Virus record (IMG/VR): IMGVR_UViG_3300042259_000159
Reading direction: 5' to 3' (one strand)
Origin: a virus
DNA: 64,000 nt
Below are positions 39,323 through 61,423 of the stretch, one piece after another (the first letter of the stretch is position 1; each line of letters opens with the position of its first letter). The translations under genes were made by a program, and so were the position numbers. The notes beneath the pieces were generated by a model, which did not search any database, had not been told where the DNA came from, and saw only the letters and a list, made by a program, of their open reading frames with translations.

Positions 39323-39526
39323 CCTGATCAGAATACTGGCAAGAAACATTGATAACGACAATCTTTATCAACGTATCTGGCGATCCTTTCAGGTTAACAC
39401 AAATCTGGAAGAAAGTAAAGTAATATAAATTTTAATAAGGGGTTGACATCTTCCTGATATTTTGATATTATAGAAAGAGAGGCGTATGGGGAGGGGGGAG
39501 GCCTTAAGCACCGGTATACTTATATA

Positions 39527-39576
39527 CCAAGTACCCCTATAGGTTCATGCCGGATATTTGCCCAAGTACCCCTATA
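39527..39576 (+). repeat. direct repeat CCAAGTACCCCTATA x2
   Basis: Copies at 39527-39541 and 39562-39576. A related TATACCAAGTA occurs at approx 20171. Confidence 0.8.
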
Positions 39577-39967
39577 ATGGTATACCGATATACTTATACA
39601 CACCATATCTGCACACAGAAGGTATAGGGGGATATTTCCTGCTAGGATATTTCCACACAAAAAGGGGGAGTATATGGGAGGGATATTCCTGAAGGGAATA
39701 GATATTTTAGACAGGTATATATATATTATCTCTATGCTATATATACTCTATATATGTATATTCCATATATACATATTTCTTCTTATTCTATTCTTCTATT
39801 TCTACTAATGAGATATATACATATTAGGACAGCATATGCATGTGTCTACATCACATGTAGACACATATATACACATTCCCTTTCCTAACGGACAGCCGTA
39901 TTATAACATATTTTTTGGATTTTGTCAAGAACTTTTTTGTATTTCACATGGAAAATATTTCATACCG

Positions 39968-40085
39968 GCTATTCCTTTTGGGAATAGCCTATTCCATTTT
40001 GGAATAACCATTCCTAGGGGAATAGCCTGTTCCCAGAGGGAACAGACATACCCGAAGGGAATAGATATGCCCATTGGAAATAGCA
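39968..40085. repeat. array of inverted repeats built on GGAATAGC / GCTATTCC
   Basis: GCTATTCCttttgGGAATAGC, CTATTCCattttGGAATAA, CATTCCtaggGGAATAG, CCTGTTCCCagagGGAACAG, GGGAATAGA, GGAAATAGC. Confidence 0.8.
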
Positions 40086-40187
40086 AAAGCCCACACACCT
40101 GTAAAGATATGTGGGCTGATAACATTAACAGTGTTAATAACATTAGCGAAGCTAATAATATTTTATCCTATCAATCAATACCTGTAG

Positions 40188-40418
40188 CTACGTGATCGAG
40201 GCAGAGCACCTGTGGTCGAGGTAGAACACCTTGCCAATGCAGAAGGTATGCCCTTCCTTCATAATGCGGAATGTTGCTTGCATGGGCACATTTACCTCCA
40301 CTACCCACTGGATGCCTTGTTCAGGCCAGAAACTCAAGCTGCCGTTAAACTCAAAAGGCTTTGCTTCACAACCCTTCACAGCGGTATTTATCTCTTCCAT
40401 ACCATCTTCACCAGTCAT
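40188..40418 (-). CDS. hypothetical protein
   Basis: ATGA overlap with the methyltransferase stop. Confidence 0.4.
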   Translation of the reverse strand: MTGEDGMEEINTAVKGCEAKPFEFNGSLSFWPEQGIQWVVEVNVPMQATFRIMKEGHTFCIGKVFYLDHRCSASIT

Positions 40419-41269
40419 GACTCCACGGAATCAAGCAAACTTGGCTGCTTATTTCTACGGCTAATAGCCTCGGCGTCTAGCCGCTTAGCGATTATCTCGC
40501 AGTACTTTTCTTCGCGCTCTATCAGGATCCAGCGGCGGCTAGCACGCTCGGCTGCAACTGCTGTTGTGCCGCTGCCCGCGCAGAAATCAAGCACTGTTTC
40601 ACCTTCGTTGGTGTAGGTTTTGATGAGGTATTCCATTAGGGCAACAGGTTTTTGGGTTGGATGGAGTGCTTCAGAGTCTTGGCTAAATTTAATAACACCG
40701 CGAGGGTAGTTTGTAAATTCTTGTTTATAGCTTTCAGATTTGGTCAGATCATTATGTACACTTGTCCTATCCCCATTCTCTTTTAGAGAATCCTTCCGTG
40801 TCTTTGTCCCCGTGTTTTTTACCACCTTGTCCACCTTTACAAGCCCCTGCGCGTTATAAGTTGGCTGCTTGCGGTAGAATACAAGCACGTCCTCAAATCC
40901 TTTTAGCGGCATCCTTTTGGCATTGGGGAAATTTGTTGGACGACCTTTCTCCCAGACCCATGTGTATTTAAGCATTTTGAGATTACTAGCCCCCAAAAGA
41001 CTTGTAAACGGCTGGCTAGCAGTCATAACAACAGCCCCACTAGGCTTGATAGCCCGCTTCAACTGCTCCCACATTGGCTCTAGCGGAATAATGCTATCCC
41101 ACTTACACGCCGTCATTCCAATTCAGCCGTAGGGTGGATCGCATAACACCAGGTCTATAGAGCCGTCTGGGATATATTTCATAACCTCAAGACAATCTCC
41201 ATGAACCAACGTGTTAGGCAATACGCACCCTACGTGCTGTATCTCCTTTTCGTTAGTTATAGTAAACAT
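40415..41269 (-). pseudogene. N6/N4 DNA methyltransferase (beta class) with an in-frame TGA after DPPYG
   Basis: ATG 41269 ... VLCDPPYG-TGA(41125..41123)-IGMTACKWD ... HPTQKP ... FCAGSGTT, all in one frame. The track ORF 40415..41116 is the downstream part. Confidence 0.7.
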
Positions 41270-41811
41270 TAAATAAAATACTCCTGTATGTTTAGTTTCA
41301 AATTATTCCAATCTGTTTGTGTCATATCATTTTTGCACCTATTTTCAAACCACGACAAAAACTGCAAGTTTTCTATGTCATTAGTTCCTCCTTTTGCTTT
41401 TGGTGTTATGTGGTCTATTGATGGCTTTTTGTATTTTTCTTTACCGCCGCTAACCCATCTTTCATAAATCCTATTAAATTGATCGTCATAGTAAAACCTA
41501 CTTATATAACTTTTGTACCATTCAGTTGATATGTCCCATCTGCCTGAACGATTCGTAATTACATCATTTAACAGCTTTAATTTATCAAAATCCTTAAACT
41601 GCATTAACCAATCAGTCGTTACGTCAAACCTCAAGTGTGTTGCCATGTTGTTATAATTGCGCTCAATATCACAATTAAATTTTTTAACACCTCTTAGATT
41701 CTTGGGCTTTCTGGTCTGTACCCCATTTCTCTTCAGGATTCTTGATATTAGTTTGTGATTAGTACCTAGCTTATCCGCTATAGAGCGCATTGAATCGCCA
41801 CTTTTGTACAA
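41269..41811 (-). CDS. HNH endonuclease with N-terminal HTH
   Basis: SIDHITPKAKGGTNDIENLQFLSWFENRCKND. Its stop overlaps the methyltransferase ATG (TAATG). Confidence 0.75.
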   Translation of the reverse strand: MYKSGDSMRSIADKLGTNHKLISRILKRNGVQTRKPKNLRGVKKFNCDIERNYNNMATHLRFDVTTDWLMQFKDFDKLKLLNDVITNRSGRWDISTEWYKSYISRFYYDDQFNRIYERWVSGGKEKYKKPSIDHITPKAKGGTNDIENLQFLSWFENRCKNDMTQTDWNNLKLNIQEYFI

Positions 41812-41816
41812 TTCAA

Positions 41817-42218
41817 CTAATGGATAAATAGGTAATCCCCAATCTCCTCGGGGCGTTTAGCATTTTTTACCTGCTCATTATAAGGAAGAACCAAGAGTTC
41901 ACCAACAGCATCCCTTTTGGATACAGGCAGTTTTTCTTCCAGCCGTTTTTGCATAGACTCGGAGTCCATTCCCATCAACAGCTCAAAAATCTCCAAATCT
42001 TTTAGACGATTATCGGTGGCAGGTAGAAGCGATCCAAGTATACAGGCTTTATTGAGTATCAGGGGTTTGCGCCCTTTCCAGTAACTGCCAAGAGCGGTCA
42101 ATGTTTTGCTCTGAACAGCGCTCTGTTCTTTAAAACTTTCAGCGGATATTTTTTGCACTGGAAAGAGATGTTCAATCAGTGCCGGTTTATCTTTCCATTC
42201 GAACGGTTTCAGTGCCAT
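41817..42218 (-). CDS. DUF1156-like N-terminal fragment (domain normally at the N-terminus of large DNA methylases)
   Basis: From MALKPFEWKDK: LIEHLFPVQKISAESFKEQ...YWKGRKPLILNKACILGSLLP resembles DUF1156. Only about 133 aa; it ends 5 nt before the HNH gene. Confidence 0.4.
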   Translation of the reverse strand: MALKPFEWKDKPALIEHLFPVQKISAESFKEQSAVQSKTLTALGSYWKGRKPLILNKACILGSLLPATDNRLKDLEIFELLMGMDSESMQKRLEEKLPVSKRDAVGELLVLPYNEQVKNAKRPEEIGDYLFIH

Positions 42219-42448
42219 CAGATATCTCCCTTTTCTATAAATCCAACAAGAGGAAGGACTTCTTGTTTTGCTTGTATATTGTACATCTGGCAAAGATCAG
42301 TAAGATTGTCAGAAGATGTAACCCACTTACCAACCTGATTTTTGACATCGAAAAAGGTAACACCCTTATTGTGATTGCATGGTAAGAGGTTTTCAAAAAG
42401 ATTATGGCACCCCCTTAAGGAGGGCTTTTGTATCATAACACCTTCCAC
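42218..42448 (-). CDS. hypothetical protein
   Basis: ORF track. Confidence 0.3.
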   Translation of the reverse strand: MEGVMIQKPSLRGCHNLFENLLPCNHNKGVTFFDVKNQVGKWVTSSDNLTDLCQMYNIQAKQEVLPLVGFIEKGDI

Positions 42449-42592
42449 AGGTGGGACAAAATATTAAACTGGTTAGTTCTGTTTGGTGTATAGTCATCAA
42501 CACACCCTCCCATCACTTGTCATTTGCTTGCTCCTCTGTGTTTTTTGTATGGTTTTATAGCCTCGGCATCGCCCCTGCTTTCTGCCCATTGC

Positions 42593-43417
42593 TTAGATGA
42601 TTGCTTTATTCTCATGTGCACTCTCAATGCGCCGCTTGGCAATGTTGAAATAGCCTTGGTCTAGCTCAATACCGATAAAGCAGCGGTTCAGCAGCTTGGC
42701 CATCTTGCCAGTCGTACCGCTGCCCATGAAGGGGTCGAAAATCGTATCGCCTTCGTTTGACCAGCTTGATATATGTCTTTGCGCTAATTTTTCAGGAAAA
42801 ATTGCAGGGTGCTTAAACGCCTCACTATCCATTGTTGAGTGACCTTTACCTGTCGTTATGTACCATATATTTCCATCTATCTTATCTAATCCAACTGGTT
42901 TCCTTTTCTTGCCACTTCTGGCACTGCGCATTTTTTCAGTTGTAGATGAAAAATAACTGTTCTGACGTGAAGTTTCTTTTTCCGGATATTTTGTCGGAAC
43001 TCGAATGGCGTTAAAGGTTTTAGGTCTACCCTTACTAAAAACAAACATATACTCAAAATCTTGTTCGTATCTGTTGTGGTTTTTCGGTAGTGCGTTTTTA
43101 TGGTATATCATCGTATCATGCAGCCGGAAGCCGCACTCCATAGCCCACAATGCTTGCTTAAAGCTAGTACCTGTCTCACTACCCTTAATCGTGGCGTCAC
43201 CAACAACCCAAACAACAACCCCACCATCTTTAGTAACACGGTATAGGTCTTTAATAACCGCCTTCCAAACATGCTCTCCCCACAACGCATTATTGCCGTT
43301 ATAAGTGCGCAGATTATCGTATGGTGGGCTTGTTACCGTTAAATCAACAATACCATCAGGTATTTCTTTCATCCGCTCAAGGCAATCGCCTAGCATCAGC
43401 TTAATCATCATCACCAC
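42593..43417 (-). CDS. N6/N4 DNA methyltransferase (SPPY type)
   Basis: LTVTSPPYDN, HPAIFPEKL, FDPFMGSGTTG. Confidence 0.8.
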   Translation of the reverse strand: MVMMIKLMLGDCLERMKEIPDGIVDLTVTSPPYDNLRTYNGNNALWGEHVWKAVIKDLYRVTKDGGVVVWVVGDATIKGSETGTSFKQALWAMECGFRLHDTMIYHKNALPKNHNRYEQDFEYMFVFSKGRPKTFNAIRVPTKYPEKETSRQNSYFSSTTEKMRSARSGKKRKPVGLDKIDGNIWYITTGKGHSTMDSEAFKHPAIFPEKLAQRHISSWSNEGDTIFDPFMGSGTTGKMAKLLNRCFIGIELDQGYFNIAKRRIESAHENKAII

Positions 43418-43613
43418 CCATCAGCCCGTCAAACAAATCATCGGTATATCCTTCAATTTTCCCTTCAATATGCCCATCAATCCATGCCCCACCGTATGTT
43501 TTAGGGTAGGGGCTAGTAACACCTTCTAGCTTGTTACGGCTATCCTGTTCACAACACAAGGGGATGTACTTGTTCTGTTCATTTTCACAATCCACCTCAA
43601 TCACATATCTCAT
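43401..43613 (-). CDS. hypothetical protein
   Basis: ORF track. Confidence 0.4.
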   Translation of the reverse strand: MRYVIEVDCENEQNKYIPLCCEQDSRNKLEGVTSPYPKTYGGAWIDGHIEGKIEGYTDDLFDGLMGGDDD

Positions 43614-43634
43614 GATTTCTCCTTTTATTCGCTC

Positions 43635-44351
43635 TTATATTTCCGAAAGACGCTTGTTTCCCCTGAACCTTTTACCTTCCGAGTAATTTATTCTCTCCTC
43701 AAGATCAAGCATCCTCGCCCACAATTCCGGCTTATTATTTTTAACAGCCAAAAGGCTGTCCAAGGGTTGAAGGGGGCAGCAATAGCAGGATACCCTATTC
43801 ATGTGTTTGTAGAGGCCCCCCCAATCAAAGCCCCTATCATAGCAGTATTCAAGGGCTGATTTTTCGTCCATATCCCACTCTATCAAAGGAAAACGAAGAA
43901 TCCATCCATGTTTTTCAGCATTAGCATTCATTGTTCTAGAGAGCGCCCTCTCTGATTCATCTTTTGCAAAGCCAATACACTTAACAATGTTACCATCTAT
44001 TTTTTTATAGCTCATCCCCCTCAAATAGTAATCAAAAGCTTTTATCTTTTCTCTTGTACACCACCTTCTAGACGGTGATGGCCATCCAACACCACGGCAC
44101 CTTACTTCTTTAGTCCCCCTAGAGACCACTTCGTGCTCCGTAAGCCAATAATCAAAGGGTTTGTTTGGTTTGAGTATGGTGATTTTGCGAGAAATATAGT
44201 CTTCAACCTTTTTGATATGATCATACATCTCGGGAAATTCCCAACCTGTGTCAAACATAACAATGTCTTCAATCTTTTCTCCACATTCAATGGCCTTCAA
44301 AAGCATTGCTGTAGAATCCTTTCCCCCGCTAAAACTAAAAAATTGTCGCAT
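43635..44351 (-). CDS. PAPS reductase-like PP-loop ATPase
   Basis: N-terminal FSFSGGKDSTAMLL (SGGKDS PP-loop). Confidence 0.65.
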   Translation of the reverse strand: MRQFFSFSGGKDSTAMLLKAIECGEKIEDIVMFDTGWEFPEMYDHIKKVEDYISRKITILKPNKPFDYWLTEHEVVSRGTKEVRCRGVGWPSPSRRWCTREKIKAFDYYLRGMSYKKIDGNIVKCIGFAKDESERALSRTMNANAEKHGWILRFPLIEWDMDEKSALEYCYDRGFDWGGLYKHMNRVSCYCCPLQPLDSLLAVKNNKPELWARMLDLEERINYSEGKRFRGNKRLSEI

Positions 44352-44371
44352 ATACTACTCCTTTTTGCAAT

Positions 44372-44599
44372 CTAACGTTTATTAACATATTTTCCTCTGA
44401 CAGGTACTCCCCTGTAAAGCACAGGTGTATCAAAATAGTACTCTTCTGTCAACCTGTTTAGAGGAGTATAATGCCAAGTTTGGTTTTTATTTGATGTCCA
44501 TGAAAAATGAGGAAAGGGGAATATCTTTTCACAATTAACCCTCCCTCCACATGTAATTTGTTTCCAGATTGCCCAGATAAGACAGTTACCGTACCGCAT
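44372..44599 (-). CDS. hypothetical protein
   Basis: ORF track. Confidence 0.4.
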   Translation of the reverse strand: MRYGNCLIWAIWKQITCGGRVNCEKIFPFPHFSWTSNKNQTWHYTPLNRLTEEYYFDTPVLYRGVPVRGKYVNKR

Positions 44600-44631
44600 A
44601 AACTTACCACGTATAAAAGAGGATATAAAAG

Positions 44632-44943
44632 TTAAAGTTTGTCATCCAACCCCTTTATCCACCGACTATACTCTGTATCTGAGAGGCCAAAATATTCTTG
44701 AAGGGTAACACCTTCACATTCATCGCCACCATACCGCTTATCGATCATGTTGTCAACAATTTTCCTGTTTATCTTTTGAGGCTTATTTAATGTTGATGCC
44801 ACATACTTAACATCTAGAACGTGGTATACATACAGGAGAACAATCCAAATAAACGGAGTCATCCCACTAAAGGTGGCATAAAGGGTCGCTACAAACAAGG
44901 TAGCAATAGTGGCAAAGTAAGAAACAATAAAAACAGGGTACAC
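44632..44943 (-). CDS. membrane protein
   Basis: Two N-terminal TM segments. Confidence 0.4.
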   Translation of the reverse strand: MYPVFIVSYFATIATLFVATLYATFSGMTPFIWIVLLYVYHVLDVKYVASTLNKPQKINRKIVDNMIDKRYGGDECEGVTLQEYFGLSDTEYSRWIKGLDDKL

Positions 44944-44954
44944 GGCAACACCTC

Positions 44955-45152
44955 CTAAATATGTTCTTCTATAAGATTCTTTGTACTTATAACACAGAAC
45001 CTGATGGAGCTATACAGCCCAAGGAGCAAACCTGTGGTAATGAAGCCGCTAACAACTATGCTTCCTGACAAAGCCATAACCAGAAGATAGGCAAAGAAGA
45101 GACAACCACACAACGATCCTGCAAAATCAAGCAGTGTTTTAAAGCCTTTCAT
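44955..45152 (-). CDS. small membrane protein
   Basis: ATG at 45152 after GGAG (MKGFKTLLDF...). Confidence 0.4.
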   Translation of the reverse strand: MKGFKTLLDFAGSLCGCLFFAYLLVMALSGSIVVSGFITTGLLLGLYSSIRFCVISTKNLIEEHI

Positions 45153-45693
45153 GTTGTTCTTTCTCCATAATATATTGACAAATAACTTTTGCTGCTTTTT
45201 CGTCACTTACTAGGTTTATAAAAGGTATATTATACTCTATAAGAAAGTTTTTTATCTTAATATCTACCTCTTCAGCCTCTTTTACATCCTTTTGGGTGCG
45301 TCCCTTTGAATCATAGGGGAACTTTTTATTTCTTTCCAAGAGGATGTTAACGTTGTCATATGCATTGAAAGTTTCAACAACAAGGTGTTGAAATGCGTTT
45401 TTAGGAACAAAACCATCAACCTTGCAATAGATGGCTGATAGGAGTATAGGGCTGTCTGTAACCACGAAGTCTGCCTGCCCATAGATACTTTTCTGTTGCA
45501 GTAGCTGTTTTGCGAAAATGTAGAGTTGCTCTTCTTGGAGAATCTTCTCTCTGCCCTGATATACCAAGCTTTTAGCATACTCTGTTACCAGTTCAGTGCT
45601 CAGATGTCTCCTTTTCATTACTGAGAAAAGATCCGCAGCGACAGTGCTTTTACCGGCACAAGGCCCACCAAAGATGTTGATTATTTTAGTCAT
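45139..45693 (-). CDS. P-loop NTPase (AAA_28-like)
   Basis: Walker A GGPCAGKST; later VVTDSP. Confidence 0.5.
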   Translation of the reverse strand: MTKIINIFGGPCAGKSTVAADLFSVMKRRHLSTELVTEYAKSLVYQGREKILQEEQLYIFAKQLLQQKSIYGQADFVVTDSPILLSAIYCKVDGFVPKNAFQHLVVETFNAYDNVNILLERNKKFPYDSKGRTQKDVKEAEEVDIKIKNFLIEYNIPFINLVSDEKAAKVICQYIMEKEQHERL

Positions 45694-48848: not shown

Positions 48849-51800
48849 CTAAATGCTTTTATCTACAAACTTTCTCTGTGGAAAATCAAATTCCCGCCTT
48901 GTTTTATTCCAAGCTTTTACGGGTGTAAAAAACCCAACAACCCTTGTCAGCTGTGTACTTATATCTTCCGAACATATGGGGCATGTACTGAAGGAACCCA
49001 TAGAGACATGGGAGTTGATACACTCAGAGTATACGGTATTAATGGCAAAATGTTCACATCCACAACCCAAAGCAAAACAGATAATTTTCTTGGCCTGCTC
49101 TCTTGTCAGCCTCTGCCCGACAGTGGCATGAACAATCCCCCCGCCTGTTAGGTTTTTAGTATATTCTCCGTCAATTCTGAGCCTGTCCCACAGAGATGCC
49201 TCTTCCCACAAAGGAACAAACTGGTTTGCATAGAGAGGGTATTCTATAAAAGTATCGCCGTGAATGATCTTATCTGCGCTGCAAACTTTTACAGCCATAC
49301 TCTCTGCTGGGATTTGCTCAATGTTGAAGACATATCCTGCGTTCTTCTTGGTATACAATCTAGCTTTTCTGTTAAGAAATGTCAAGATCTTTTTCTTCAA
49401 ATCCCCCTCAACACCGAACCTTTGTTTAAGAACCTTTTCACACTCGTAAAGACCAAGAATACCAAACGTTGAAAAGAGCCTGTTGAGGTCTATCCACCCA
49501 CGCGTTATAAAAGGCTGAAGACCTATTTGTTCAAGGACATGAATCAAGACCTTATGAGCAATCAGAATATCTTTAGCAGCCTCTACACGGTACGTGTATA
49601 TTTTCCAAAAATCATCAATACTCTCGGCCTCAATTGCCATCTTGTTGAAATTAAGAGTAACAACTCTATGGCTCCCGATGCTGGAAAGAACACCGGCACC
49701 GAAAGAATTGGAGGTGGATGCCACATCTAACATCTCTTCATCATTGATCAATCGGCAACAGCTAGCGATCTTTGTGCTCTCAGATGTGAAAATATTGTAG
49801 CGCGAAATGTCTCTATTAAGAAATATTTCCAAACTCTCTTCGTCTGCAAGGATGTAATCATCGCCGTCCTTAGTTTTTGAAATGTTCATCGTGCAAACAG
49901 GGAACCTGTAAGGCATCCCGTTATTTGAGGGATCTCCTTTATCAAAGATGTCTAGGAATATTTCCTGCAATTCAAAAACATAGTCAACACACTCTTCTAT
50001 ATCTACAACACCACCATCTGAAAACATCCACAAAAGATGTTCCTTTATGATGTACCTGAGTTTGTGTTTATCAAACACCGATACATTGGTAAAGGGACTC
50101 TCAACTCCGTCACGACTCAAATGGTTTACGCTGTGAATAAGCTGTTGAAACTCGTTTTCTATCTCTTTCCTCACAGCCTTATCGTTTTTAAGCACATCAA
50201 GGGGAACCTTATTCTTTATCATGAGAAGGTGAGCAACATCTATAAATACAGTACCTATGGCTAGAGCACCAGCAACATGCGATGACATTTGGTGGATTGT
50301 CTCACACAGGGCGGCAATATAACTATTAACTCTTTTTGCCGGTTTAGAGGGCAATACTCCAAAAGTTCTTCCTTCTGTAATGAGATTTGTTGCGTTTAAA
50401 GAATAACAATTATGTTGCACCATTCCGTTTGCATAAAAACGGCCCGTTGCTGTTGTCAAATCATATACGTCTTGAAGCTCCTCTCTAAGCTTTCTTGTAC
50501 TAGGAATGTCTTCAAGATTAAACCTGATGATTTTTACAACCCTGTTGCTTTCGCCCTTGGTGTTTGCTTTTTCATTATACTTATCATAGTCTTCTTTATG
50601 CATCTTCATCTTATCAGAAAGATCAACCATCTTATTCGTACTTGACGGGACAAAGGAAAGGGCATAAATCGAATTAGAAATATCACTCCCTTTTATCCTT
50701 TTTCTAAGGCATCGAATACCTTCAATGCCTCTAAGGACGTCATAAAGTGTGTTTATTACTGCCATAGACTGCAAACAAATCTCCACCCTGCCATTCTTTT
50801 TGTAGGTATATCCGTCCGCGTCTACAAGCCCCGCAACAAGTGCCTCTACAGAATCATTTGTCCAAGAGAGGATGTTCTTAGGAAGAACCTTTGTGAAGCT
50901 ATTTTCTTTGTTCCCGAAACCAAAAAAGGCACTTACAAGAAAATTCATATCATAAGAAGACCAATTAATCTGTCTCTCGACTTTATCACTGGGCTTAAAA
51001 AGATTCGCATCAGGAAACAAGTCTTTTATGATACTATAAATTCTTGAGTTATCAATATCGTTTTGATAAACACTGCAAAGCGTTCCCCCTCTTGTAAATC
51101 TGAAAGAGCCTTTTATGTCCTTACCGTTCATTACGCCATCATCAACACAATACCCTTCAAAGTTCCCATCACCAAGCATAAAGCCAAGAAGGTAGGCCAG
51201 CTTTTCTGGAACAATTATTGTTTTTTCCACGGAGGGCAAACAAGTCTCTGTCAAAACAGCATCCCCAACAGAAAGTTCTGAGGCTATTTTTTCAGTTCCA
51301 TCTTCCATATAGATTGGGTGGTTGTCTGTTACCAAAGCAAAGTGCCCTGCCTCTGTCTGATACAAAGAGAATCCTGTATCCGTTTTATGCTTGATAATAC
51401 GTTGTACAGCAACCCATCCATTGTTTGTATCCCAAACCTCTATATTAACTTTTTCACTCACATTGCAGGCCAACTTACCGGAACGACCTTTTGCGGTGTT
51501 CTTGTTAGTGATGTTCGCACTCACATTATTACGCAGCATTGCTGTTGTAATCTCTAGATCTCTTGTAAGGCCTTTTGTGTTAATTTCCTCATGCGTACCC
51601 CTATTTTCGGAGTGTATTGCAAACATATTGAAAAGCTTTTTAAGAGGAATACAAATAATCTCTCCGTTAATTCTGACAAAAACAGGCGTGTTTCCATAAT
51701 ACGAATATGGAAGGTTTAGCTTCGTGCTGTCGGAGATGGGAAGACTGAAATCCAACATTTCTCCTATAAGCCTTTTAGCCCTCTTCTTGCCGTAGAGTTC

Positions 51801-52184
51801 CTTCATAACACGGTAGAGGAAATCGTACCCTGCAATTTTTTTCTGGGGGGCACTTGCCTCACTCTGTATTCCGGCAATTGTCTTCTCATTCTTATTAGCA
51901 TTGTCATCAATAGAGACATCATTAATGTTTGCATTTAATTGTTTTTGAAACATCTTGAGAAAGTCTGTATTGTCCTGCGAAAGACCATGCAGACGCATAA
52001 GTTTTTCAGCTTTTGTATCAATCTCTTCTTGAGAAAGGGTTGTTTTACGAGAAAGATTCCTTTTCAAAGCCTTAAGCATCTGTTTCCGTGTGTATTCAAT
52101 CTCAGCATCATTTGTAAAAGATGAAGAAAAACCTTTAGCTATGCTATTCAAAGCAGTAAACTCCTTCTTTTGTAAGTTTAACAT
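48849..52184 (-). CDS. nrdD: anaerobic ribonucleoside-triphosphate reductase (class III), intein-containing
   Basis: C-terminal CPICS Zn site and glycyl-radical region TRVVGFFTPVKAWN. Likely start MLNLQKKEF at 52184, overlapping the nrdG 3' end. A 432-aa insert carries intein blocks. Confidence 0.8.
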   Translation of the reverse strand: MLNLQKKEFTALNSIAKGFSSSFTNDAEIEYTRKQMLKALKRNLSRKTTLSQEEIDTKAEKLMRLHGLSQDNTDFLKMFQKQLNANINDVSIDDNANKNEKTIAGIQSEASAPQKKIAGYDFLYRVMKELYGKKRAKRLIGEMLDFSLPISDSTKLNLPYSYYGNTPVFVRINGEIICIPLKKLFNMFAIHSENRGTHEEINTKGLTRDLEITTAMLRNNVSANITNKNTAKGRSGKLACNVSEKVNIEVWDTNNGWVAVQRIIKHKTDTGFSLYQTEAGHFALVTDNHPIYMEDGTEKIASELSVGDAVLTETCLPSVEKTIIVPEKLAYLLGFMLGDGNFEGYCVDDGVMNGKDIKGSFRFTRGGTLCSVYQNDIDNSRIYSIIKDLFPDANLFKPSDKVERQINWSSYDMNFLVSAFFGFGNKENSFTKVLPKNILSWTNDSVEALVAGLVDADGYTYKKNGRVEICLQSMAVINTLYDVLRGIEGIRCLRKRIKGSDISNSIYALSFVPSSTNKMVDLSDKMKMHKEDYDKYNEKANTKGESNRVVKIIRFNLEDIPSTRKLREELQDVYDLTTATGRFYANGMVQHNCYSLNATNLITEGRTFGVLPSKPAKRVNSYIAALCETIHQMSSHVAGALAIGTVFIDVAHLLMIKNKVPLDVLKNDKAVRKEIENEFQQLIHSVNHLSRDGVESPFTNVSVFDKHKLRYIIKEHLLWMFSDGGVVDIEECVDYVFELQEIFLDIFDKGDPSNNGMPYRFPVCTMNISKTKDGDDYILADEESLEIFLNRDISRYNIFTSESTKIASCCRLINDEEMLDVASTSNSFGAGVLSSIGSHRVVTLNFNKMAIEAESIDDFWKIYTYRVEAAKDILIAHKVLIHVLEQIGLQPFITRGWIDLNRLFSTFGILGLYECEKVLKQRFGVEGDLKKKILTFLNRKARLYTKKNAGYVFNIEQIPAESMAVKVCSADKIIHGDTFIEYPLYANQFVPLWEEASLWDRLRIDGEYTKNLTGGGIVHATVGQRLTREQAKKIICFALGCGCEHFAINTVYSECINSHVSMGSFSTCPICSEDISTQLTRVVGFFTPVKAWNKTRREFDFPQRKFVDKSI
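50409..51704 (-). mobile_element. intein with LAGLIDADG homing endonuclease domain inside NrdD
   Basis: Block A SYYGNTPVFV (Ser1), block B LVTDNHPIY, LAGLIDADG motifs LAYLLGFMLGDGNF and LVAGLVDADGYTY, C-terminal FYANGMVQHN followed by extein Cys (CYSLN). Confidence 0.8.
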
Positions 52185-52659
52185 AATTATTATTATAAAG
52201 TTCTTGGTTAGACGAACCAAGTACGAGTTTTGTCCTTTGCCCTTTTGTTGTATCTGACTGGTGCAGTTCTTTTATATACTCTCCTGTTTTTATAAATTTG
52301 AAACCGTTAAGATTAAGGTATTTAACAGTGTCAATATCGTATCCAGTATAAATACATATGTTAAAACACCCACCGTATTGTTCTAAGAACTGTGCTGTAA
52401 ACCCTCTGTTGCAGGAGGCTAGCGGATCTCCACCAAGAAGTACAATATTATTTGTGCGGTATTTTAAGGTCTCCTGTTTACAATGGTTGTAGAAGTCTTC
52501 AATGGAAAATTCCACACCACCCTGATATTCAGGGTTTTGCAGGGAGGGGTTATGACACCCCTTACAGGAAAAATCACACCCACACATAAAAAGACTTACT
52601 GCCCACCCATCCTTTGAGGGGTAGTCTGTAAATGTCATCTCAGAACCTGCAAATCTCAT
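52144..52659 (-). CDS. nrdG: anaerobic RNR activating enzyme (radical SAM)
   Basis: CGCDFSCKGCHNP (CxxxCxxC cluster). Confidence 0.8.
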   Translation of the reverse strand: MRFAGSEMTFTDYPSKDGWAVSLFMCGCDFSCKGCHNPSLQNPEYQGGVEFSIEDFYNHCKQETLKYRTNNIVLLGGDPLASCNRGFTAQFLEQYGGCFNICIYTGYDIDTVKYLNLNGFKFIKTGEYIKELHQSDTTKGQRTKLVLGSSNQELYNNNYVKLTKEGVYCFE

Positions 52660-54658: not shown

Positions 54659-55108
54659 TTACTTATCTCTCTGGTAGTAGTGCTTTGATATTGCACTTCT
54701 TTCCATTTTTTGAATTTTTTTATTCTGAACGTCGGACCCATAACGTCCAGAACACGTTCTGGAACAAAAGGGCCCAGCTTTATTTTTAATGTTTCTCTGT
54801 GTCACCGTTGGCGTAAAAAGAGAATCGCAATATGGACACTTTACTTCTTCCACTCTCACCCTTACCACATCAAGCGAAGCATGGGAGGATCTACACAAAA
54901 CTTGTAAATTTTCAATTTTGTTGTTCAGTGGATTTCTATCAATGTGGTCAACTGTCTCAGATGGATCTAAAACTCTGCCCAGATGCACTTCCATTATAAT
55001 TCTGGAAGCCTGTTTAGCAGTTCTTTTAATTCCATCATATAAAACAATGACCAGTCTACCGTCTTTCCTTAAATATGGCCCATAAATTTTTTTACACTCT
55101 GGGTACAA
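54659..55108 (-). CDS. HNH homing endonuclease
   Basis: VDHIDRNPLNNKIENLQVLCRSSHA plus C-terminal CPYC...CSRTC. The track ORF extends to 55192 but overlaps tRNA-Leu; a TTG at 55108 is proposed as the start. Confidence 0.65.
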   Translation of the reverse strand: MYPECKKIYGPYLRKDGRLVIVLYDGIKRTAKQASRIIMEVHLGRVLDPSETVDHIDRNPLNNKIENLQVLCRSSHASLDVVRVRVEEVKCPYCDSLFTPTVTQRNIKNKAGPFCSRTCSGRYGSDVQNKKIQKMERSAISKHYYQRDK

Positions 55109-55122
55109 TTTTTGAATGTGTT

Positions 55123-55206
55123 TGGTAGGAGAAGAGAGATTCGAACTCTCAAGGAATAATCCGTCGAGGCTTAAACTCGATGTGTTTACCATTTCACCAT
55201 TCTCCC
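55123..55206 (-). tRNA. tRNA-Leu (anticodon UAA), type II with long variable arm, CCA encoded
   Basis: GGGAGAA/TTCTCCT acceptor, anticodon arm TCGAG-TTTAAGC-CTCGA, T-arm GAGAG-TTCGAAT-CTCTC. Confidence 0.75.
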
Positions 55207-55245
55207 GTATTTTTTATCTACCATTCCGCCATTCCCGCATTTATT

Positions 55246-55323
55246 TGGTACCCACTGTGAGATTCGAACCCACACTAATCAGTTTCTAAGACTGATGCCT
55301 CTGCCAAGTTGGGCTATACCAGT
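55246..55323 (-). tRNA. chimeric / possibly defective tRNA (anticodon UAG, short variable loop)
   Basis: Good D, anticodon (TCAGT-CTTAGAA-ACTGA) and T arms. However, 5' acceptor ACTGGTA pairs poorly with the local 3' strand AGTGGGT and well with TGCCAGT at 54617..54646. Confidence 0.45.
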
Positions 55324-56519: not shown

Positions 56520-56790
56520 TGTTGATACCTTATAGGTTCAGCCCTACCAAGGGCACTGCGGCTTAAGTGGGTTGGTTGGTGCAGATTGTGAACGTACCCC
56601 CGCCTATAGAGGCGGAAGCTTCCTGCTTCAGCGAGAACAGCACCAGTAACTCCGAAGAGTTGTGGCGAATTACACTCTCTCCACAGGCGTAAATTCCCGT
56701 GCGACCCACGGTACTTTATGAGTTACGCTAGGCAGATATTCGCCCAGCTTCTTCTCTAATATTTATTGCAGCGTTCTTGTCACGGTTATG
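56520..56790 (-). ncRNA. expected TnpB omega-RNA (reRNA) region
   Basis: Located by position at the 3' end of tnpB plus downstream sequence. Hairpins CCGTGGGTCGCACGG, ACTCttcgGAGT and CCGCCtctataGGCGGGGG are present; the exact ends are unknown. Confidence 0.3.
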
Positions 56791-58022: not shown

Positions 58023-58109
58023 TGGTGCCCAATGCAGGACTCGAACCTGCACGCCATTTCAGGCAGGAGGGCTTAAACCTCGTGTGTCTACCAATTCCAC
58101 CAATCGGGC
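58023..58109 (-). tRNA. tRNA-Leu (anticodon UAA), type II, CCA encoded
   Basis: Close to E. coli leuZ-type layout: GCCCGAT..GTGGAATTGGTAGACAC..TTTAAGC..TGCAGGTTCGAGTCCTGCATTGGGCACCA. Confidence 0.8.
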
Positions 58110-58118
58110 TAAAATCTT

Positions 58119-58202
58119 TGGTGCCTCAGACAGGATTCGAACCTGCACGGATCTCTCCACTTGGTCCTAAGCCAAGCGTGTCTGCCATTCCACCACTGAG
58201 GC
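58119..58202 (-). tRNA. tRNA-Leu (anticodon UAG), type II, CCA encoded
   Basis: GCCTCAG acceptor, CTTGG-CTTAGGA-CCAAG, long variable arm, GCAGGTTCGAATCCTGT. Confidence 0.8.
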
Positions 58203-60713: not shown

Positions 60714-61423
60714 TTAGATAGTAAACAGTTTTTCAACACCTTTCTTGCTTCCCGTGTTCTTTGTCAGGCTGCTTACAATTTCTTTTTTCCAAATGCAAGT
60801 AAAATCTTCTGGAGCATTATATTCTGAAACAAACACCTTATGTCCCTCATTAGCCTTATCTCTGCACCACTGCCAAAACAACTCATGGTCAAAATCATTA
60901 GAGTACTTTGTTGTCCCTGAATAGGGCGGATCACAGTAGATTAAGCTGTTACTGGGGATATGTAGCTCATCATAAGGACAACACAAAAATTCTACATTTT
61001 GAATTAGCGAGGACTGTTTTATTGCTGATTGCTTACTACGTTTTGTTTGTATTATCATGTTTTCAATATCACCTTTTGTTCCTGCTTTGTCCCGCCTATA
61101 CCCCCCAAAAAATTTACCACCAAAAGACATTGAAAATGCTGTAAATCCAGTTAAACCATCAATATTTTTGTGTTTTTTCATTGAATTGTACATATCTTCT
61201 GTAATAATTTCAGGAATACTTTTTGGTGCATCGCGTATAAGTTTTAATGCTTCTATTACATACGGGCTGCAATGGCGGCCCCAATACGATTCCCATCAAC
61301 CTTATCAATCATGTTTCCACCTCCAACAAACGGTTCAACCCACCACTGGTCAGGTTTTCTTTCTGCAAGCATAATTGGGAGGATATACTTTGCTATTCTG
61401 TTTTTACTTCCCATGTATTTCAT
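60714..61423 (-). pseudogene. Dam-like (D12 class) N6-adenine methyltransferase split by a frameshift
   Basis: N-part MKYMGSKNRIAKYILP...WVEPFVGGGN (61256..61423). C-part ...SPYVIEALKLIRD...LIYCDPPYSGTTKY (60714..approx 61250) lies in another frame. The switch is near 61250-61265. Confidence 0.65.

What the first reader, a model, noticed from the sequence alone, without database searches (positions are those of the whole stretch)
40188..44351. DNA-modification island: two beta-class methyltransferases plus a PAPS-reductase-like PP-loop enzyme and small unknown ORFs
A DPPY methylase, an SPPY methylase and an SGGKDS PP-loop protein (PAPS reductase / DndC-like fold) are clustered with four unknown ORFs of about 70-80 aa. 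A third, Dam-like methylase lies at 60714..61423. PP-loop proteins of this family next to methylases recur in phages and their role is not established. It may go beyond simple methylation, for example sulphur or other base or backbone modification, or anti-restriction activity.
Basis: inference. Interest (0 to 1): 0.5.

Follow-up and report, generated by a model that had tools for sequence, protein, structure and literature searches.

The report
Homing-endonuclease cassette with stop-hop in methylase
A phage DNA-methylase gene has been invaded by a selfish nuclease cassette that leaves a 9-base stop-containing gap in the enzyme's active-site codons, and about 80 related cases suggest that ribosomes hop over this gap, a decoding trick so far known in nature essentially only from phage T4 gene 60.

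Summary
The SPPY methylase (42593-43417) and the SGGKDS PP-loop protein (43635-44351) are intact. The DPPY methylase is not one ORF. An in-frame TGA sits right after DPPYG (41123-41125). Relatives show the TGA is not a random lesion. Eighty-three unique contexts carry a 5-11 nt insert at the same site (TGA, 0-5 nt, then GGN). Frames differ, yet the downstream methylase ORF stays open. The HNH gene lies upstream of interrupted alleles and of none of 74 uninterrupted ones. This is the architecture of the T4 mobA/gene 60 mobile bypass cassette, with a new target and a far shorter gap. I propose a Gly-to-Gly ribosomal hop. This rests on comparative evidence only. The PP-loop protein belongs to a large stand-alone phage family (over 4000 homologues) closest to SspD/DndC. 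It has no Dnd/Ssp partners here and only a loose link to methylases. A fused homologue was reported to counter Dnd defence. A coordinated hypermodification pathway is not supported.

The parts
43635..44351 (-). Stand-alone PP-loop ATP-pyrophosphatase of the PAPS-reductase family, SspD/DndC-like, 238 aa. It has SGGKDS and the invariant residues Cys98, Cys170, Cys189, Cys191 and Cys192.
43401..43613 (-). Unknown 70-aa ORF between the PP-loop gene and the SPPY methylase.
   Evidence: Called in the Logan assemblies. No hit in Pfam, PHROGs, NCBIfam or PADLOC. Not conserved beside PP-loop homologues.
42593..43417 (-). Intact beta-class SPPY DNA methyltransferase, 274 aa.
   Evidence: Pfam N6_N4_Mtase 7.7e-47, profile positions 1-220/221. 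PADLOC orphan MTase 7.4e-82. Motif IV is SPPY and motif I is FMGSGTT.
41817..42218 (-). 5' remnant (133 codons) of a DUF1156 methyltransferase gene of roughly 944-1005 codons. It is truncated where the HNH gene begins.
   Evidence: PADLOC DUF1156_MTase positions 1-133/944, 235-250 bits. NCBIfam NF042963 9.6e-40. In 14 other viral contigs the homologue runs on: 12 give complete ORFs of 944-1005 aa and two are cut by the contig end.
41269..41811 (-). HTH+HNH homing endonuclease, 180 aa from the TTG. The frame is open upstream to 41856, and the native start appears to have been lost with the left flank. Its TAA overlaps the ATG of the methylase N-segment.
   Evidence: Pfam HNH 5e-6 and HTH_38 9e-5, matching profile positions 16-44 only. 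Homologues at 83-88% identity lie in the same position in other contigs. Found upstream of interrupted alleles only.
41126..41269 (-). Cassette-borne replacement 5' end of the DPPY methylase, 48 codons. It consists of a unique N-terminal extension MFTITNEKEIQHVGCVLPNTLVH plus a region homologous to the methylase N-terminus, GDCLEVMKYIPDGSIDLVLCDPPYG. It ends at the proposed take-off codon GGC (41126-41128).
   Evidence: Found as exactly 48 codons in 50 other loci, with pN/pS 0.30 (extension) and 0.17 (homologous part). Nucleotide identity to other cassettes is 80-100%, while the methylase body falls to about 50%.
41117..41125 (-). 9-nt coding gap TGA ATT GGA: a stop, a spacer and the proposed landing codon. 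It is inserted between DPPYG and (T)TACKWD.
   Evidence: Uninterrupted relatives read DPPYGTTACKWD. In 83 unique contexts the insert is TGA, then 0-5 nt, then GGN (77 contexts) or AGN (6 contexts), with lengths of 5-11 nt.
40415..41116 (-). Body of the DPPY beta-class methyltransferase, 233 codons starting MTACKWD. Motif I is FCAGSGTT.
   Evidence: Pfam N6_N4_Mtase 4.4e-31 on the joined sequence, profile positions 1-220/221. PADLOC MTase_II 2.7e-78.
40188..40418 (-). Unknown 76-aa ORF. Its start overlaps the methylase stop (ATGA).
   Evidence: No family hit.
60714..61423 (-). D12-class (Dam-like) methyltransferase gene broken by a 1-nt frame shift near 61260.
   Evidence: Pfam MethyltransfD12 scores 6.4e-13 only when the two frames are joined.

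Best explanation
The stretch is the accessory 'DNA-marking' end of the minus-strand replication and nucleotide-metabolism module of a large phage. The contig is 91.6 kb and carries ThyX, NrdD/G, ligase, Pol A, primase-helicase and tRNAs. Four things lie side by side.

(1) An intact SPPY methylase.

(2) An intact stand-alone SspD/DndC-like PP-loop enzyme.

(3) A DPPY methylase invaded by a mobile HNH homing-endonuclease cassette. The cassette brings the nuclease gene and a replacement 48-codon 5' end for the methylase. It also brings a 9-nt insert, TGA ATT GGA, placed exactly in the DPPYG|TTACKWD-coding DNA.

Inferred, by analogy: that conserved DNA is the nuclease's target, and the insert splits it, which makes the carrier immune to its own nuclease. 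Inferred from comparative data: ribosomes carrying peptidyl-tRNA-Gly on GGC meet the UGA, detach and re-pair on the GGA 9 nt downstream. They then resume and make a full-length enzyme (DPPYG-MTACKWD) without the inserted codons. This is a natural 'stop-hop' and follows the same logic as the mobA/gene 60 element of T4.

(4) The cassette's left edge has since been joined by a deletion to codon 133 of a DUF1156 methylase gene. This left a stump and removed the nuclease's original start.

For the PP-loop enzyme my best guess, at about 0.35, is a counter-defence role against phosphorothioate-based immunity (Dnd, Ssp, BREX type 4). It would act as an active ATP-pyrophosphatase and sulfur-relay protein working with host components, not as part of a phage-encoded multi-enzyme pathway.
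For: Shown directly.
- The in-frame TGA follows DPPYG and is reproduced in an independent assembly.
- There is no global stop-codon reassignment, no suppressor tRNA, and no intron or other RNA family.
- Among 80 related viral methylase loci, 74 are uninterrupted (nearly all read DPPYGTTACKWD; a few carry substitutions or were not resolved by the motif scan), and 6 carry a stop within DPP/YG/TT. None of the 74 uninterrupted loci has the HNH gene. Five of the 6 interrupted ones do, and the sixth lacks upstream sequence.
- An unbiased scan left the gap free and found 88 loci in 83 unique contexts. Insert lengths were 9 nt (59 contexts), 6 (10), 10 (5), 5 (4), 11 (3) and 7 (2). In every case TGA follows the Gly codon, and the triplet just before coding resumes is GGN in 77 contexts and AGN in 6.
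- The downstream ORF is open for about 200-235 codons in the landing frame in nearly all complete loci. This includes the 5-, 10- and 11-nt gaps, which are out of frame with the N-segment, so read-through cannot join them.
- Gaps differ by 1-2 nt indels, as non-coding DNA does (TGACTT-GGT against TGACTTC-GGT; TGA-GGA against TGAC-GGA). Two contigs that share the 10-nt gap differ in the methylase body by 11 synonymous and 2 non-synonymous changes, giving dN/dS 0.05.
- The N-segment is under purifying selection.
- High nucleotide identity between cassettes runs from the HNH start to about 100 nt past the gap and then decays, as a co-conversion tract does.
- In other contigs the host methylase's own N-terminus survives upstream. 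It is cut at DPP or fused in frame to the HNH.

Literature.
- The MobA element consists of HNH, N- and C-terminal extensions, a homologous replacement region and a bypass that ends at the landing codon. The bypass protects against MobA.
- The T4 take-off codon is also a Gly codon, GGA.
- Natural in-frame stop-hops were expected, but 'no occurrences are known'.

PP-loop enzyme: the family, the conserved Cys residues and the fold. More than 4183 stand-alone homologues. The anti-Dnd precedent.
Against: - No protein or ribosome data exist, so the hop is inferred.
- In the 9-nt class the spacer codon is nearly always NTN (Ile or Leu). The landing codon varies freely in its third base and does not covary with the take-off codon (GGC to GGA is common). 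This is what a translated W-I/L-G insert made by UGA read-through would also show.
- Six contexts land on AGN. One separate insert type (L037: CCA TAG TTA TAC) has no matching codon.
- Synthetic stop-hops are reported as inefficient.
- In this window alone the codon after the landing site is ATG. Termination followed by re-initiation, giving a split enzyme, is therefore possible here.
- The nuclease's target has not been tested.
- The window's HNH lacks an obvious start codon and may be inactive.
- For the PP-loop enzyme, the anti-Dnd precedent is a Dam fusion that was moved together with a second gene. No biochemistry exists for the stand-alone family.
Confidence: 0.6

Rival explanations
1. 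The stop is decoded by other recoding events, not by a hop. In-frame gaps (6 and 9 nt) would use UGA read-through, giving DPPYG-W-(I/L)-G-TT. Out-of-frame gaps would use +1 or -1/+2 frameshifting at GGN-UGA. The enzyme would tolerate 1-4 extra residues after the catalytic loop.
For: The spacer codon in the 9-nt class is NTN (Ile or Leu) in 57 of 59 contexts. The 'landing' Gly codon shows free synonymous variation. UGA is the leakiest stop codon (general knowledge).
Against: Homologous cassettes that differ by a single nucleotide in the gap would need three different mechanisms. The 10-nt derivative of a 9-nt cassette is still under purifying selection. tRNA-Gly slipping +1 onto GCU or GUU pairs worse than re-pairing on GGN. 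The 9-nt spacers AAC and ACA show no Ile/Leu requirement.
Confidence: 0.15
2. The methylase is simply dead. The cassette is a purely selfish element that spreads despite knocking out a dispensable accessory gene. The stop and the repeated Gly codon would be scars of insertion or repair.
For: Phage methylases are often dispensable. Two loci have decayed bodies (L126, L149). Vibrio phage VnaP keeps only methylase fragments around a related HNH. In this same window two other methylase genes are damaged.
Against: About 50 of 55 complete loci keep a 200-235-codon ORF in the landing frame. dN/dS is 0.05-0.5 in bodies that share a gap. The N-segment is under purifying selection. TGA directly after Gly, and GGN directly before resumption, are conserved across gaps of six lengths.
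Confidence: 0.12
3. The enzyme is split. The 48-aa N-segment, which carries DPPY, terminates at TGA. The body is translated separately; in this window it would start at the ATG 6 nt after the stop by termination-reinitiation. The two pieces assemble, as the T4 gp39/gp60 and Aeh1 NrdA fragments do.
For: Only in this window is the first codon after GGA an ATG. Split enzymes produced by Mob elements are documented.
Against: In the other 82 contexts there is no ATG, GTG or TTG at or near the resumption point. A 48-residue fragment carrying the catalytic loop would have to dock non-covalently.
Confidence: 0.08
4. The methylases, the PP-loop enzyme and the small ORFs form one coordinated hypermodification pathway, such as sulfur insertion or another base or backbone modification of virion DNA.
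For: The PP-loop gene lies one small ORF away from the SPPY methylase. Tight MTase|PAPS|Dam operons and a PAPS-Dam fusion exist elsewhere. The enzyme looks catalytically intact, and its nearest folds include Fe-S sulfur transferases.
Against: About half of the sampled homologues have no methylase nearby, including one in an inovirus. No DndD/E, SspB/C or BrxC-type P-loop partner and no desulfurase was found here; known PT systems need such a partner. The small ORFs are not co-conserved. The cluster is a patchwork of mobile and damaged genes.
Confidence: 0.15

Closest known systems
T4 mobA / gene 60 mobile bypass cassette (Bonocora et al. 2011, from memory; Manning & Atkins, bioRxiv 10.1101/2022.08.31.505936)
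   Same: Both have an HNH homing-endonuclease gene inserted in a conserved enzyme gene. Both are followed by an element-encoded N-terminal extension plus a region homologous to the displaced target sequence. Both then have an untranslated insert that starts with a stop directly after a Gly take-off codon and ends at a Gly landing codon. The element ends at or just after the landing codon. In both families some copies have lost the nuclease but kept the gap (searches compared).
   Different: The target is a beta-class DNA methyltransferase, at the DPPY catalytic motif, not topoisomerase II. The gap is 5-11 nt instead of 50 nt, so there is no room for the take-off stem-loop or an internal Shine-Dalgarno sequence. 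The stop is UGA. The landing codon is often synonymous with the take-off codon instead of identical. The upstream gene fragment is about 25-35 codons and is probably dispensable. This HNH has an N-terminal HTH and a C-terminal HNH, and shares only the HNH motif with MobA (E about 1e-4).
[quoted passage not shown] 2016 review, PMC5009743)
   Same: The same geometry is seen here: GGN UGA GGN (6 nt) and GGN UGA NNN GGN (9 nt).
   Different: Those were engineered and inefficient. The review states that no natural occurrence was known. Here there are 83 natural contexts, with evidence of selection.
PAPS-reductase-domain::Dam fusion of Vibrio crassostreae podophages, an anti-Dnd determinant (Piel et al. 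2022; bioRxiv 10.1101/2021.05.05.442762)
   Same: A phage-borne PAPS-reductase-family PP-loop domain is associated with a DNA methylase in a variable accessory region.
   Different: That protein is a 479-aa fusion and was transferred together with a second unknown gene. The window protein is a stand-alone 238-aa enzyme and is not fused. Sequence relatedness between the two was not tested.
SspD / DndC / BrxP, the PP-loop sulfur-inserting components of the Ssp, Dnd and BREX type 4 phosphorothioation systems
   Same: They share the PAPS-reductase PP-loop fold and SGGxDS. The best defence-library match is SspD (88 bits over the full length). Conserved cysteines are present.
   Different: The scores are far below family cut-offs (DndC TIGR03183 gives 16 bits against 290). 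No ATPase, nickase or DndE partner and no desulfurase was found nearby. The BrxP extra domains are absent.
Anti-phage-associated DUF1156 methyltransferases (NCBIfam NF042963; PADLOC DUF1156_MTase)
   Same: Residues 1-133 are collinear with the profile and 66-75% identical to full-length phage-borne copies.
   Different: Only 14% of the gene is left, and the methyltransferase domain is gone.

Membership tests
Beta-class N6/N4 DNA methyltransferase (Pfam PF01555) | Motif IV (D/S)PPY lies N-terminal to motif I FxGxG, with a full-length profile match. | tested here: met
   The SPPY gene matches profile positions 1-220/221 at 7.7e-47. The joined DPPY gene matches 1-220/221 at 4.4e-31. The motifs are SPPY...FMGSGTT and DPPY...FCAGSGTT.
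Beta-class N6/N4 DNA methyltransferase (Pfam PF01555) | One uninterrupted reading frame. | tested here: not met
   The DPPY gene has TGA at 41123-41125 between motif IV and the rest of the gene. The SPPY gene is uninterrupted.
PAPS-reductase family PP-loop ATP pyrophosphatase (Pfam PF01507) | PP-loop SGGxDS and a profile score above the gathering threshold. | tested here: met
Assimilatory PAPS/APS reductase (CysH) | Equivalog-level score and a C-terminal catalytic ECG(L/I)H cysteine motif. | tested here: not met
   TIGR00434 gives 17 bits against 165, and PRK02090 gives 17.8 against 154. The C-terminus reads ...RFRGNKRLSEI with no ECGLH motif.
DndC (Dnd phosphorothioation) | TIGR03183-level similarity and linked dndD/dndE (and dndA or iscS). 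| tested here: not met
   The score is 16 bits against 290. There are no Dnd hits among 20 neighbouring proteins.
SspD (Ssp phosphorothioation) | Similarity to SspD and linked sspB/sspC. | tested here: inconclusive
   This is the best PADLOC hit, SspD at 1.9e-25 over positions 2-209/277. No SspB or SspC was found nearby. PADLOC has no curated cut-off.
MobA/gene 60-type mobile bypass cassette | An HNH endonuclease gene lies immediately upstream of an element-encoded N-terminal extension plus a region homologous to the target. | tested here: met
MobA/gene 60-type mobile bypass cassette | The coding gap begins with a stop directly 3' of the take-off codon and ends at a landing codon for the same tRNA species or amino acid. 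| tested here: met
   The window reads GGC TGA ATT GGA. GGN landing occurs in 77 of 83 contexts, across gaps of 6-11 nt.
MobA/gene 60-type mobile bypass cassette | A 50-nt gap with a take-off stem-loop and an internal Shine-Dalgarno sequence, topoisomerase II as target, and a MobA-orthologous nuclease. | tested here: not met
   The gap is 5-11 nt. The target is a methylase. Only the HNH motif aligns with T4 MobA (E about 1e-4).
MobA/gene 60-type mobile bypass cassette | Ribosomes demonstrably bypass the gap, and the gap protects against the nuclease. | not testable with these tools
   This needs protein mass spectrometry or reporter assays, and cleavage assays.
Group I/II intron or intein carrying a homing endonuclease | An intron RNA structure or intein splicing blocks flank the endonuclease. 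| tested here: not met
   No Rfam family reaches E<=1 in 39500-45500 except a weak sRNA match. The HNH is a free-standing ORF.
DUF1156 anti-phage-associated methyltransferase | An N-terminal DUF1156 domain followed by a methyltransferase region of about 800 aa. | tested here: not met
   The DUF1156 domain is present (8.3e-20), but the ORF stops at codon 133, where 12 complete homologous ORFs run to 944-1005 aa.

The most novel reading that the evidence does not exclude
These cassettes would be the first natural family of short-distance programmed translational bypass ('stop-hop', 5-11 nt, Gly to Gly over UGA). They would also be a second, independent lineage of homing-endonuclease plus bypass mobile elements after T4 mobA/gene 60. 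They are spread across phages of several bacterial phyla and target the catalytic-motif DNA of methyltransferase genes.
Probability: 0.55. Interest if true: 0.9.

Novelty: new variant of a known kind. Interest (0 to 1): 0.75.

Why it matters
Programmed ribosomal bypassing has for decades rested on one bacterial-virus example, T4 gene 60, plus yeast mitochondria. [quoted passage not shown]

A set of about 80 natural, diverse variants gives a ready-made mutational series for testing what a ribosome needs in order to hop. The variants have six gap lengths, different spacers, and matched, synonymous or 2-of-3 landing codons.

The finding also shows a general way for a homing endonuclease to gain self-immunity at a target it cannot recode, here an active-site motif, without killing the gene. 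It explains a class of 'pseudogenised' or split methylase annotations in phage genomes.

For the PP-loop enzyme, the value is more modest. The analysis places it in a very large stand-alone phage family with an intact active site, and it points experiments at phosphorothioate-based defences.

Tried and rejected
- Genome-wide stop-codon reassignment. Reading through TGA, TAG or TAA does not merge ORFs generally, and TGA is used as a normal stop.
- A suppressor tRNA. There are 8 tRNAs and none is a suppressor.
- Assembly error. A Logan assembly is identical over 16.4 kb, and the non-3n gaps recur in independent contigs.
- An intron or other structured RNA. Rfam finds none.
- A cultured phage carrying the cassette. 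megablast of the island against 50,697 phage records gave no match. HNH relatives at 47% identity occur in Vibrio phage VnaP and Pseudoalteromonas phage H101. VnaP has only decayed methylase fragments around its HNH, and H101 has no such arrangement.
- MobA orthology. Only the HNH motif aligns.
- The DUF1156 stump as a widespread stand-alone small protein, for example a decoy. All 14 other viral-contig homologues continue past codon 133; 12 are complete at 944-1005 aa.
- The small ORFs as conserved partners of the PP-loop gene. There are no hits next to homologues.
- Dnd or Ssp partners among 20 window proteins. None was found.
- The PDB entry 21fy 'PptA'. It is the only solved sequence the family profile hits below 1e-3 (4.8e-5, C-terminal half). 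I could not find what it is in the literature.
- Prior description of bypass in methylase genes. A literature search found none in the held library.

Full report
SETTING. The window is identical to IMG/VR contig IMGVR_UViG_3300042267_000152, which is 91.6 kb long. The finding lies at the start of a long minus-strand gene run from about 40.2 to 61.7 kb. This run encodes an AAA_28 P-loop protein, DNA ligase, a DsbA-like protein, anaerobic ribonucleotide reductase NrdD with an intein signature, NrdG, ThyX, a dUTPase-like protein and tRNAs. The plus-strand arm carries a primase-helicase, a family-A DNA polymerase and a CCA-adding enzyme. This is a phage replication and nucleotide-metabolism region. 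megablast found no close cultured relative.

CHECKING THE OBSERVATION. The SPPY methylase (42593-43417, 274 aa) is intact and matches Pfam N6_N4_Mtase end to end. The PP-loop protein (43635-44351, 238 aa, FSFSGGKDST) matches PAPS_reduct above threshold and phrog_424 at 1.7e-42.

The 'DPPY methylase' is two in-frame ORFs. The first has 48 codons and ends ...LVLCDPPYG-TGA. It is followed by ATT GGA and then ATG-ACG-GCG..., a 233-codon ORF.

In fact 41269-41811 encodes an HTH+HNH endonuclease whose TAA overlaps the ATG of the 48-codon ORF. The stretch 41817-42218 encodes residues 1-133 of a DUF1156 methyltransferase (PADLOC profile positions 1-133 of 944 at 250 bits; NCBIfam 'anti-phage-associated DUF1156' at 9.6e-40).

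The small ORFs of 70 aa (43401-43613) and 76 aa (40188-40418) have no family match in four libraries. A further 76-aa ORF (42218-42448) was not called by an independent gene caller.

The Dam-like gene at 60714-61423 is a D12-class methylase. Its N- and C-terminal parts lie in different frames.

THE STOP CODON IS NOT A RANDOM LESION. I first excluded the trivial explanations:
- Reading through any one stop codon does not generally fuse ORFs in the window, and TGA ends ordinary genes here.
- None of the 8 tRNAs is a suppressor.
- Rfam finds no intron in 39.5-45.5 kb.
- A Logan assembly of another run is 100% identical over 16.4 kb, including the TGA.

I then fetched 80 viral contigs encoding relatives of the methylase body. 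Seventy-four are uninterrupted; nearly all read ...DPPYGTTACKWD..., and a few carry substitutions or were not resolved by the motif scan. Six, including the window, carry an in-frame stop inside exactly this motif. The junctions are:
- Window: TAC GGC TGA ATT GGA ATG ACG.
- L016: GGC TGA CTT GGC ACC ACT.
- L030: GGC TGA ATC GGA ACT ACA.
- L092: GGC TGA CTT GGA ACG ACA.
- L056: CCT CCG TGA CCA TAC GGA.
- L037: CCT CCA TAG TTA TAC GGG.

Each interrupted allele with enough upstream sequence has a homologous HNH gene ending at the methylase ATG. None of the 74 uninterrupted alleles has one.

THE CASSETTE. HNH homologues at 83-88% identity sit in the same arrangement in other contigs. Nucleotide identity between the window and these contigs is 80-100% from the start of the HNH gene, through the 48-codon segment, to about 100 nt beyond the TGA. 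It then falls to about 50% over the methylase body. That pattern fits a mobile segment with a co-conversion tract.

Upstream of the HNH in those contigs lies a second, truncated methylase N-terminus. In L113 it runs M..GDCLERMKEIESGSIDLILTDPP and then diverges into a short tail. In L112 it is fused in frame to the nuclease (MIDLYNGDCLEEMKKISDGSVDMV|IVELYKKGDS...).

So the element has inserted at the DPPY codons. It displaced the host's own 5' end and supplies a replacement. The replacement has a unique extension (consensus MFTITNEKEVQpVGcVlPNTLvh) plus a methylase-homologous part (GDCLEVMKyIPdgSiDlVLCDPPYG). Both parts are under purifying selection, with pN/pS of 0.30 and 0.17.

This is point for point the architecture described for the T4 MobA element. 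That element consists of an HNH gene, element-encoded terminal extensions, a 'HomR' region replacing deleted target sequence, and then the bypass, with the element ending at or just after the landing codon. There the bypass insert protects the carrier from MobA. The nucleases themselves share only the HNH motif.

THE LEFT FLANK IS DIFFERENT IN THIS WINDOW. The HNH frame is open only to 41856 and has no ATG or GTG before the TTG at 41811. The Pfam HTH match lacks its first 15 positions. Immediately upstream is the DUF1156 stump. In all 14 other viral contigs the homologous ORF continues past codon 133 (…LF(D/E)H|VWE…). Twelve of these ORFs are complete at 944-1005 aa, and two are cut by the contig end. 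The simplest reading is a deletion. It would have removed about 2.4 kb of the DUF1156 methylase gene, the residual host N-terminus and the first codons of the nuclease.

HOW THE GAP IS DECODED. I searched for the flanking codons while leaving the gap unconstrained: GAY CCN CCN TAY GGN TGA, then N{0,30}, then ACN GCN TGY AAR TGG GA. The search covered metagenome and genome collections. With the viral loci this gives 88 loci in 83 unique contexts.

The insert, measured relative to DPPYG|TT, has these lengths across the 83 unique contexts:

| Insert length | Contexts | Example sequences |
|---|---|---|
| 9 nt | 59 | TGA NNN GGN |
| 6 nt | 10 | GGT TGA GGA / GGC |
| 10 nt | 5 | TGAAATT-GGA; TGACTTC-GGT |
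| 5 nt | 4 | TGAGC |
| 11 nt | 3 | TGAAATCA-GGA; TGAATATT-AGA |
| 7 nt | 2 | TGAC-GGA; TGAC-GGC |

In every case TGA directly follows the Gly codon. The triplet immediately before coding resumes is GGN in 77 contexts and AGN in 6.

In almost all loci with enough sequence the ORF that starts at the resumption point is open for about 200-235 codons. This holds whatever the gap length, including the out-of-frame 5-, 10- and 11-nt gaps. The 7-nt case is open for 145 codons up to the contig end.

Gaps differ from one another by 1-2 nt indels, as untranslated sequence would. Examples are TGACTT-GGT against TGACTTC-GGT, and TGA-GGA against TGAC-GGA. Two contigs that share the 10-nt gap differ in the methylase body by 11 synonymous and 2 non-synonymous substitutions, a dN/dS of 0.05. 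The body has therefore been under protein-level selection since the out-of-frame gap arose.

A single mechanism fits all of this. Peptidyl-tRNA-Gly leaves the GGN when UGA occupies the A site, re-pairs with the next (G/A)GN, and decoding resumes at ACN ACN. The product has the canonical DPPYGTTACKWD junction. T4 gene 60 also takes off from a Gly codon followed by a stop.

The geometry GGN-UGA-GGN, or GGN-UGA-NNN-GGN, is that of the synthetic 'stop-hops' in E. coli. The 2016 recoding review says of these that natural counterparts were long presumed but 'no occurrences are known'. A search of the held literature found no description of bypassing in methylase genes.

CAVEATS ON THE HOP.
- There is no protein evidence.
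- In the 9-nt class the spacer is NTN (Ile or Leu) in 57 of 59 contexts. The landing codon's third base varies without covarying with the take-off codon. UGA read-through producing a W-(I/L)-G insertion would give the same picture, and it cannot be excluded for the in-frame classes. The spacers AAC and ACA do occur, however.
- Landing on AGN (six contexts) needs 2-of-3 pairing.
- The L037 insert (CCA TAG TTA TAC) has no matching codon.
- A few copies are decayed (L126 and L149; Vibrio phage VnaP).
- In this window alone, the codon after the landing site is ATG instead of ACN. Termination-reinitiation giving a two-piece enzyme is therefore a specific alternative here.
- That the DPPYGTTACKWD-coding DNA is the nuclease's target is inferred. 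The inference rests on the insertion point, on the strict HNH-gap association and on the T4 precedent. A more distant HNH (39% identity) sits next to a gap-free methylase that reads DLPFGITACKWD, which suggests that immunity can also be gained by substitution.

THE PP-LOOP ENZYME. The search found 4183 homologues at E<=1e-5. Those listed are stand-alone proteins of about 240-290 aa. An alignment of 40 shows the following invariant or near-invariant motifs: SGGKDST, FDTGWEFP, GxGWPSxxRRWCTxxK, DExxR and RVSCxCCPL. Five cysteines are invariant: 98, 170, 189, 191 and 192.

It is not CysH, because it lacks the C-terminal ECGLH motif and scores far below the cut-offs. It is not DndC at family level either, scoring 16 bits against 290. 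Its best defence-library match is SspD (1.9e-25 over the full length), then BrxP and DndC.

Known phosphorothioation systems pair this enzyme with a P-loop ATPase and a DNA-binding or nicking partner. None was found among 20 window proteins. The nearby AAA_28 protein has no defence-library hit.

The contexts of nine homologues are mixed:
- Directly next to methylases in the window, in L211 (C5-MTase|PAPS|Dam with overlapping stops and starts) and in L008.
- Within 4 kb of a methylase in L207 and L209.
- No methylase nearby in an inovirus prophage, two other prophage or phage loci, and L205.

Published work shows that a PAPS-domain::Dam fusion, together with an adjacent gene, lets a Vibrio phage escape Dnd. 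It also notes PAPS reductases in Aca-regulated candidate anti-defence operons.

My committed guess, at about 0.35, is an active counter-defence enzyme aimed at phosphorothioate-based immunity and working with host factors. Whether it marks phage DNA or diverts the host sulfur relay cannot be decided here.

OVERALL. The 'island' is best seen as an accessory hotspot where DNA-marking genes and selfish elements accumulate. It holds one intact methylase, one methylase carrying an HNH/bypass cassette, one methylase stump, and a stand-alone PP-loop enzyme. Elsewhere in the window there are a frameshifted Dam gene, a second HNH gene, a TnpB-like gene and an intein.

It is not excluded for the PP-loop enzyme alone. 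The unexpected and more interesting result is the cassette family and its short stop-containing coding gaps.

Noticed in passing
window 60714-61423 (-): The D12-class (Dam-like) methylase is split between two frames by an apparent 1-nt loss. The break lies in ...ATTGCAGCCCGTATG... near 61260, and the N-part ends AAIAARM**. This could be a pseudogene, a homopolymer sequencing error or a recoding site.
   Followed up: partly
window 39960-40090 (also 39630-39703): There is a cluster of about 6 copies of GGGAATAG(C/A)C-like 10-mers within 120 bp. It sits in the AT-rich gene-poor stretch where transcription direction and GC skew switch, just outside the finding. It may be a set of iterons at an origin or a regulatory region.
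   Followed up: partly
window 56728-57846 (-), with tRNAs at 55123-55314 and 58023-58202: A TnpB/Cas12f-like gene (OrfB_IS605 plus the Cas12f TNB domain) lies between two near-duplicate tRNA-Leu(taa)/tRNA-Leu(tag) pairs. This suggests an IS-associated duplication inside the phage tRNA cluster.
   Followed up: no
window 54659-55192 (-) and 48849-52220 (-): There is a second free-standing homing endonuclease (HNH_3). The 1123-aa NrdD gene has an intein signature. The genome carries several selfish elements.
   Followed up: no
L193-L195, L199-L201 (Leptolyngbyaceae MAG CBDHHL01): Six contigs of one cyanobacterial MAG each carry a methylase with a 5-nt insert (GGT TGAGC ACG). There is no HNH upstream, and each has an intact 231-237-codon downstream ORF in the shifted frame. 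The landing triplet is AGC, not GGN. The reason for the multiple copies is unknown.
   Followed up: partly
L203 (Vibrio phage VnaP, ON212104.1 74069-75197): A cultured phage has an HNH 47% identical to the window's. It is flanked by 40-aa and 31-aa ORFs annotated 'DNA methylase'. This looks like a decayed cassette of the same kind, and such fragment annotations may mark other cases.
   Followed up: partly
L114/L115 (IMGVR_UViG_3300037541_000705, 3300042882_001099): A distant HNH (39% identity) sits upstream of a methylase with a cassette-like N-terminal extension but no gap. The motif reads DLPFGITACKWD. The nuclease target may have been escaped by substitution instead of insertion.
   Followed up: no
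PDB 21fy chain C ('PptA', 270 aa): This is the only solved sequence that the PP-loop family profile hits below 1e-3 (4.8e-5, C-terminal half including the Cys-rich region). I could not find what PptA is in the held literature.
   Followed up: partly
L012 (ENA ERZ21878363 ctg6994c, 3.15 Mb region): A close homologue of the PP-loop protein (50% identity) is encoded inside a filamentous (inovirus-like) prophage, next to a rolling-circle Rep and Zot. This is an odd place for a putative dsDNA backbone-modifying enzyme.
   Followed up: no
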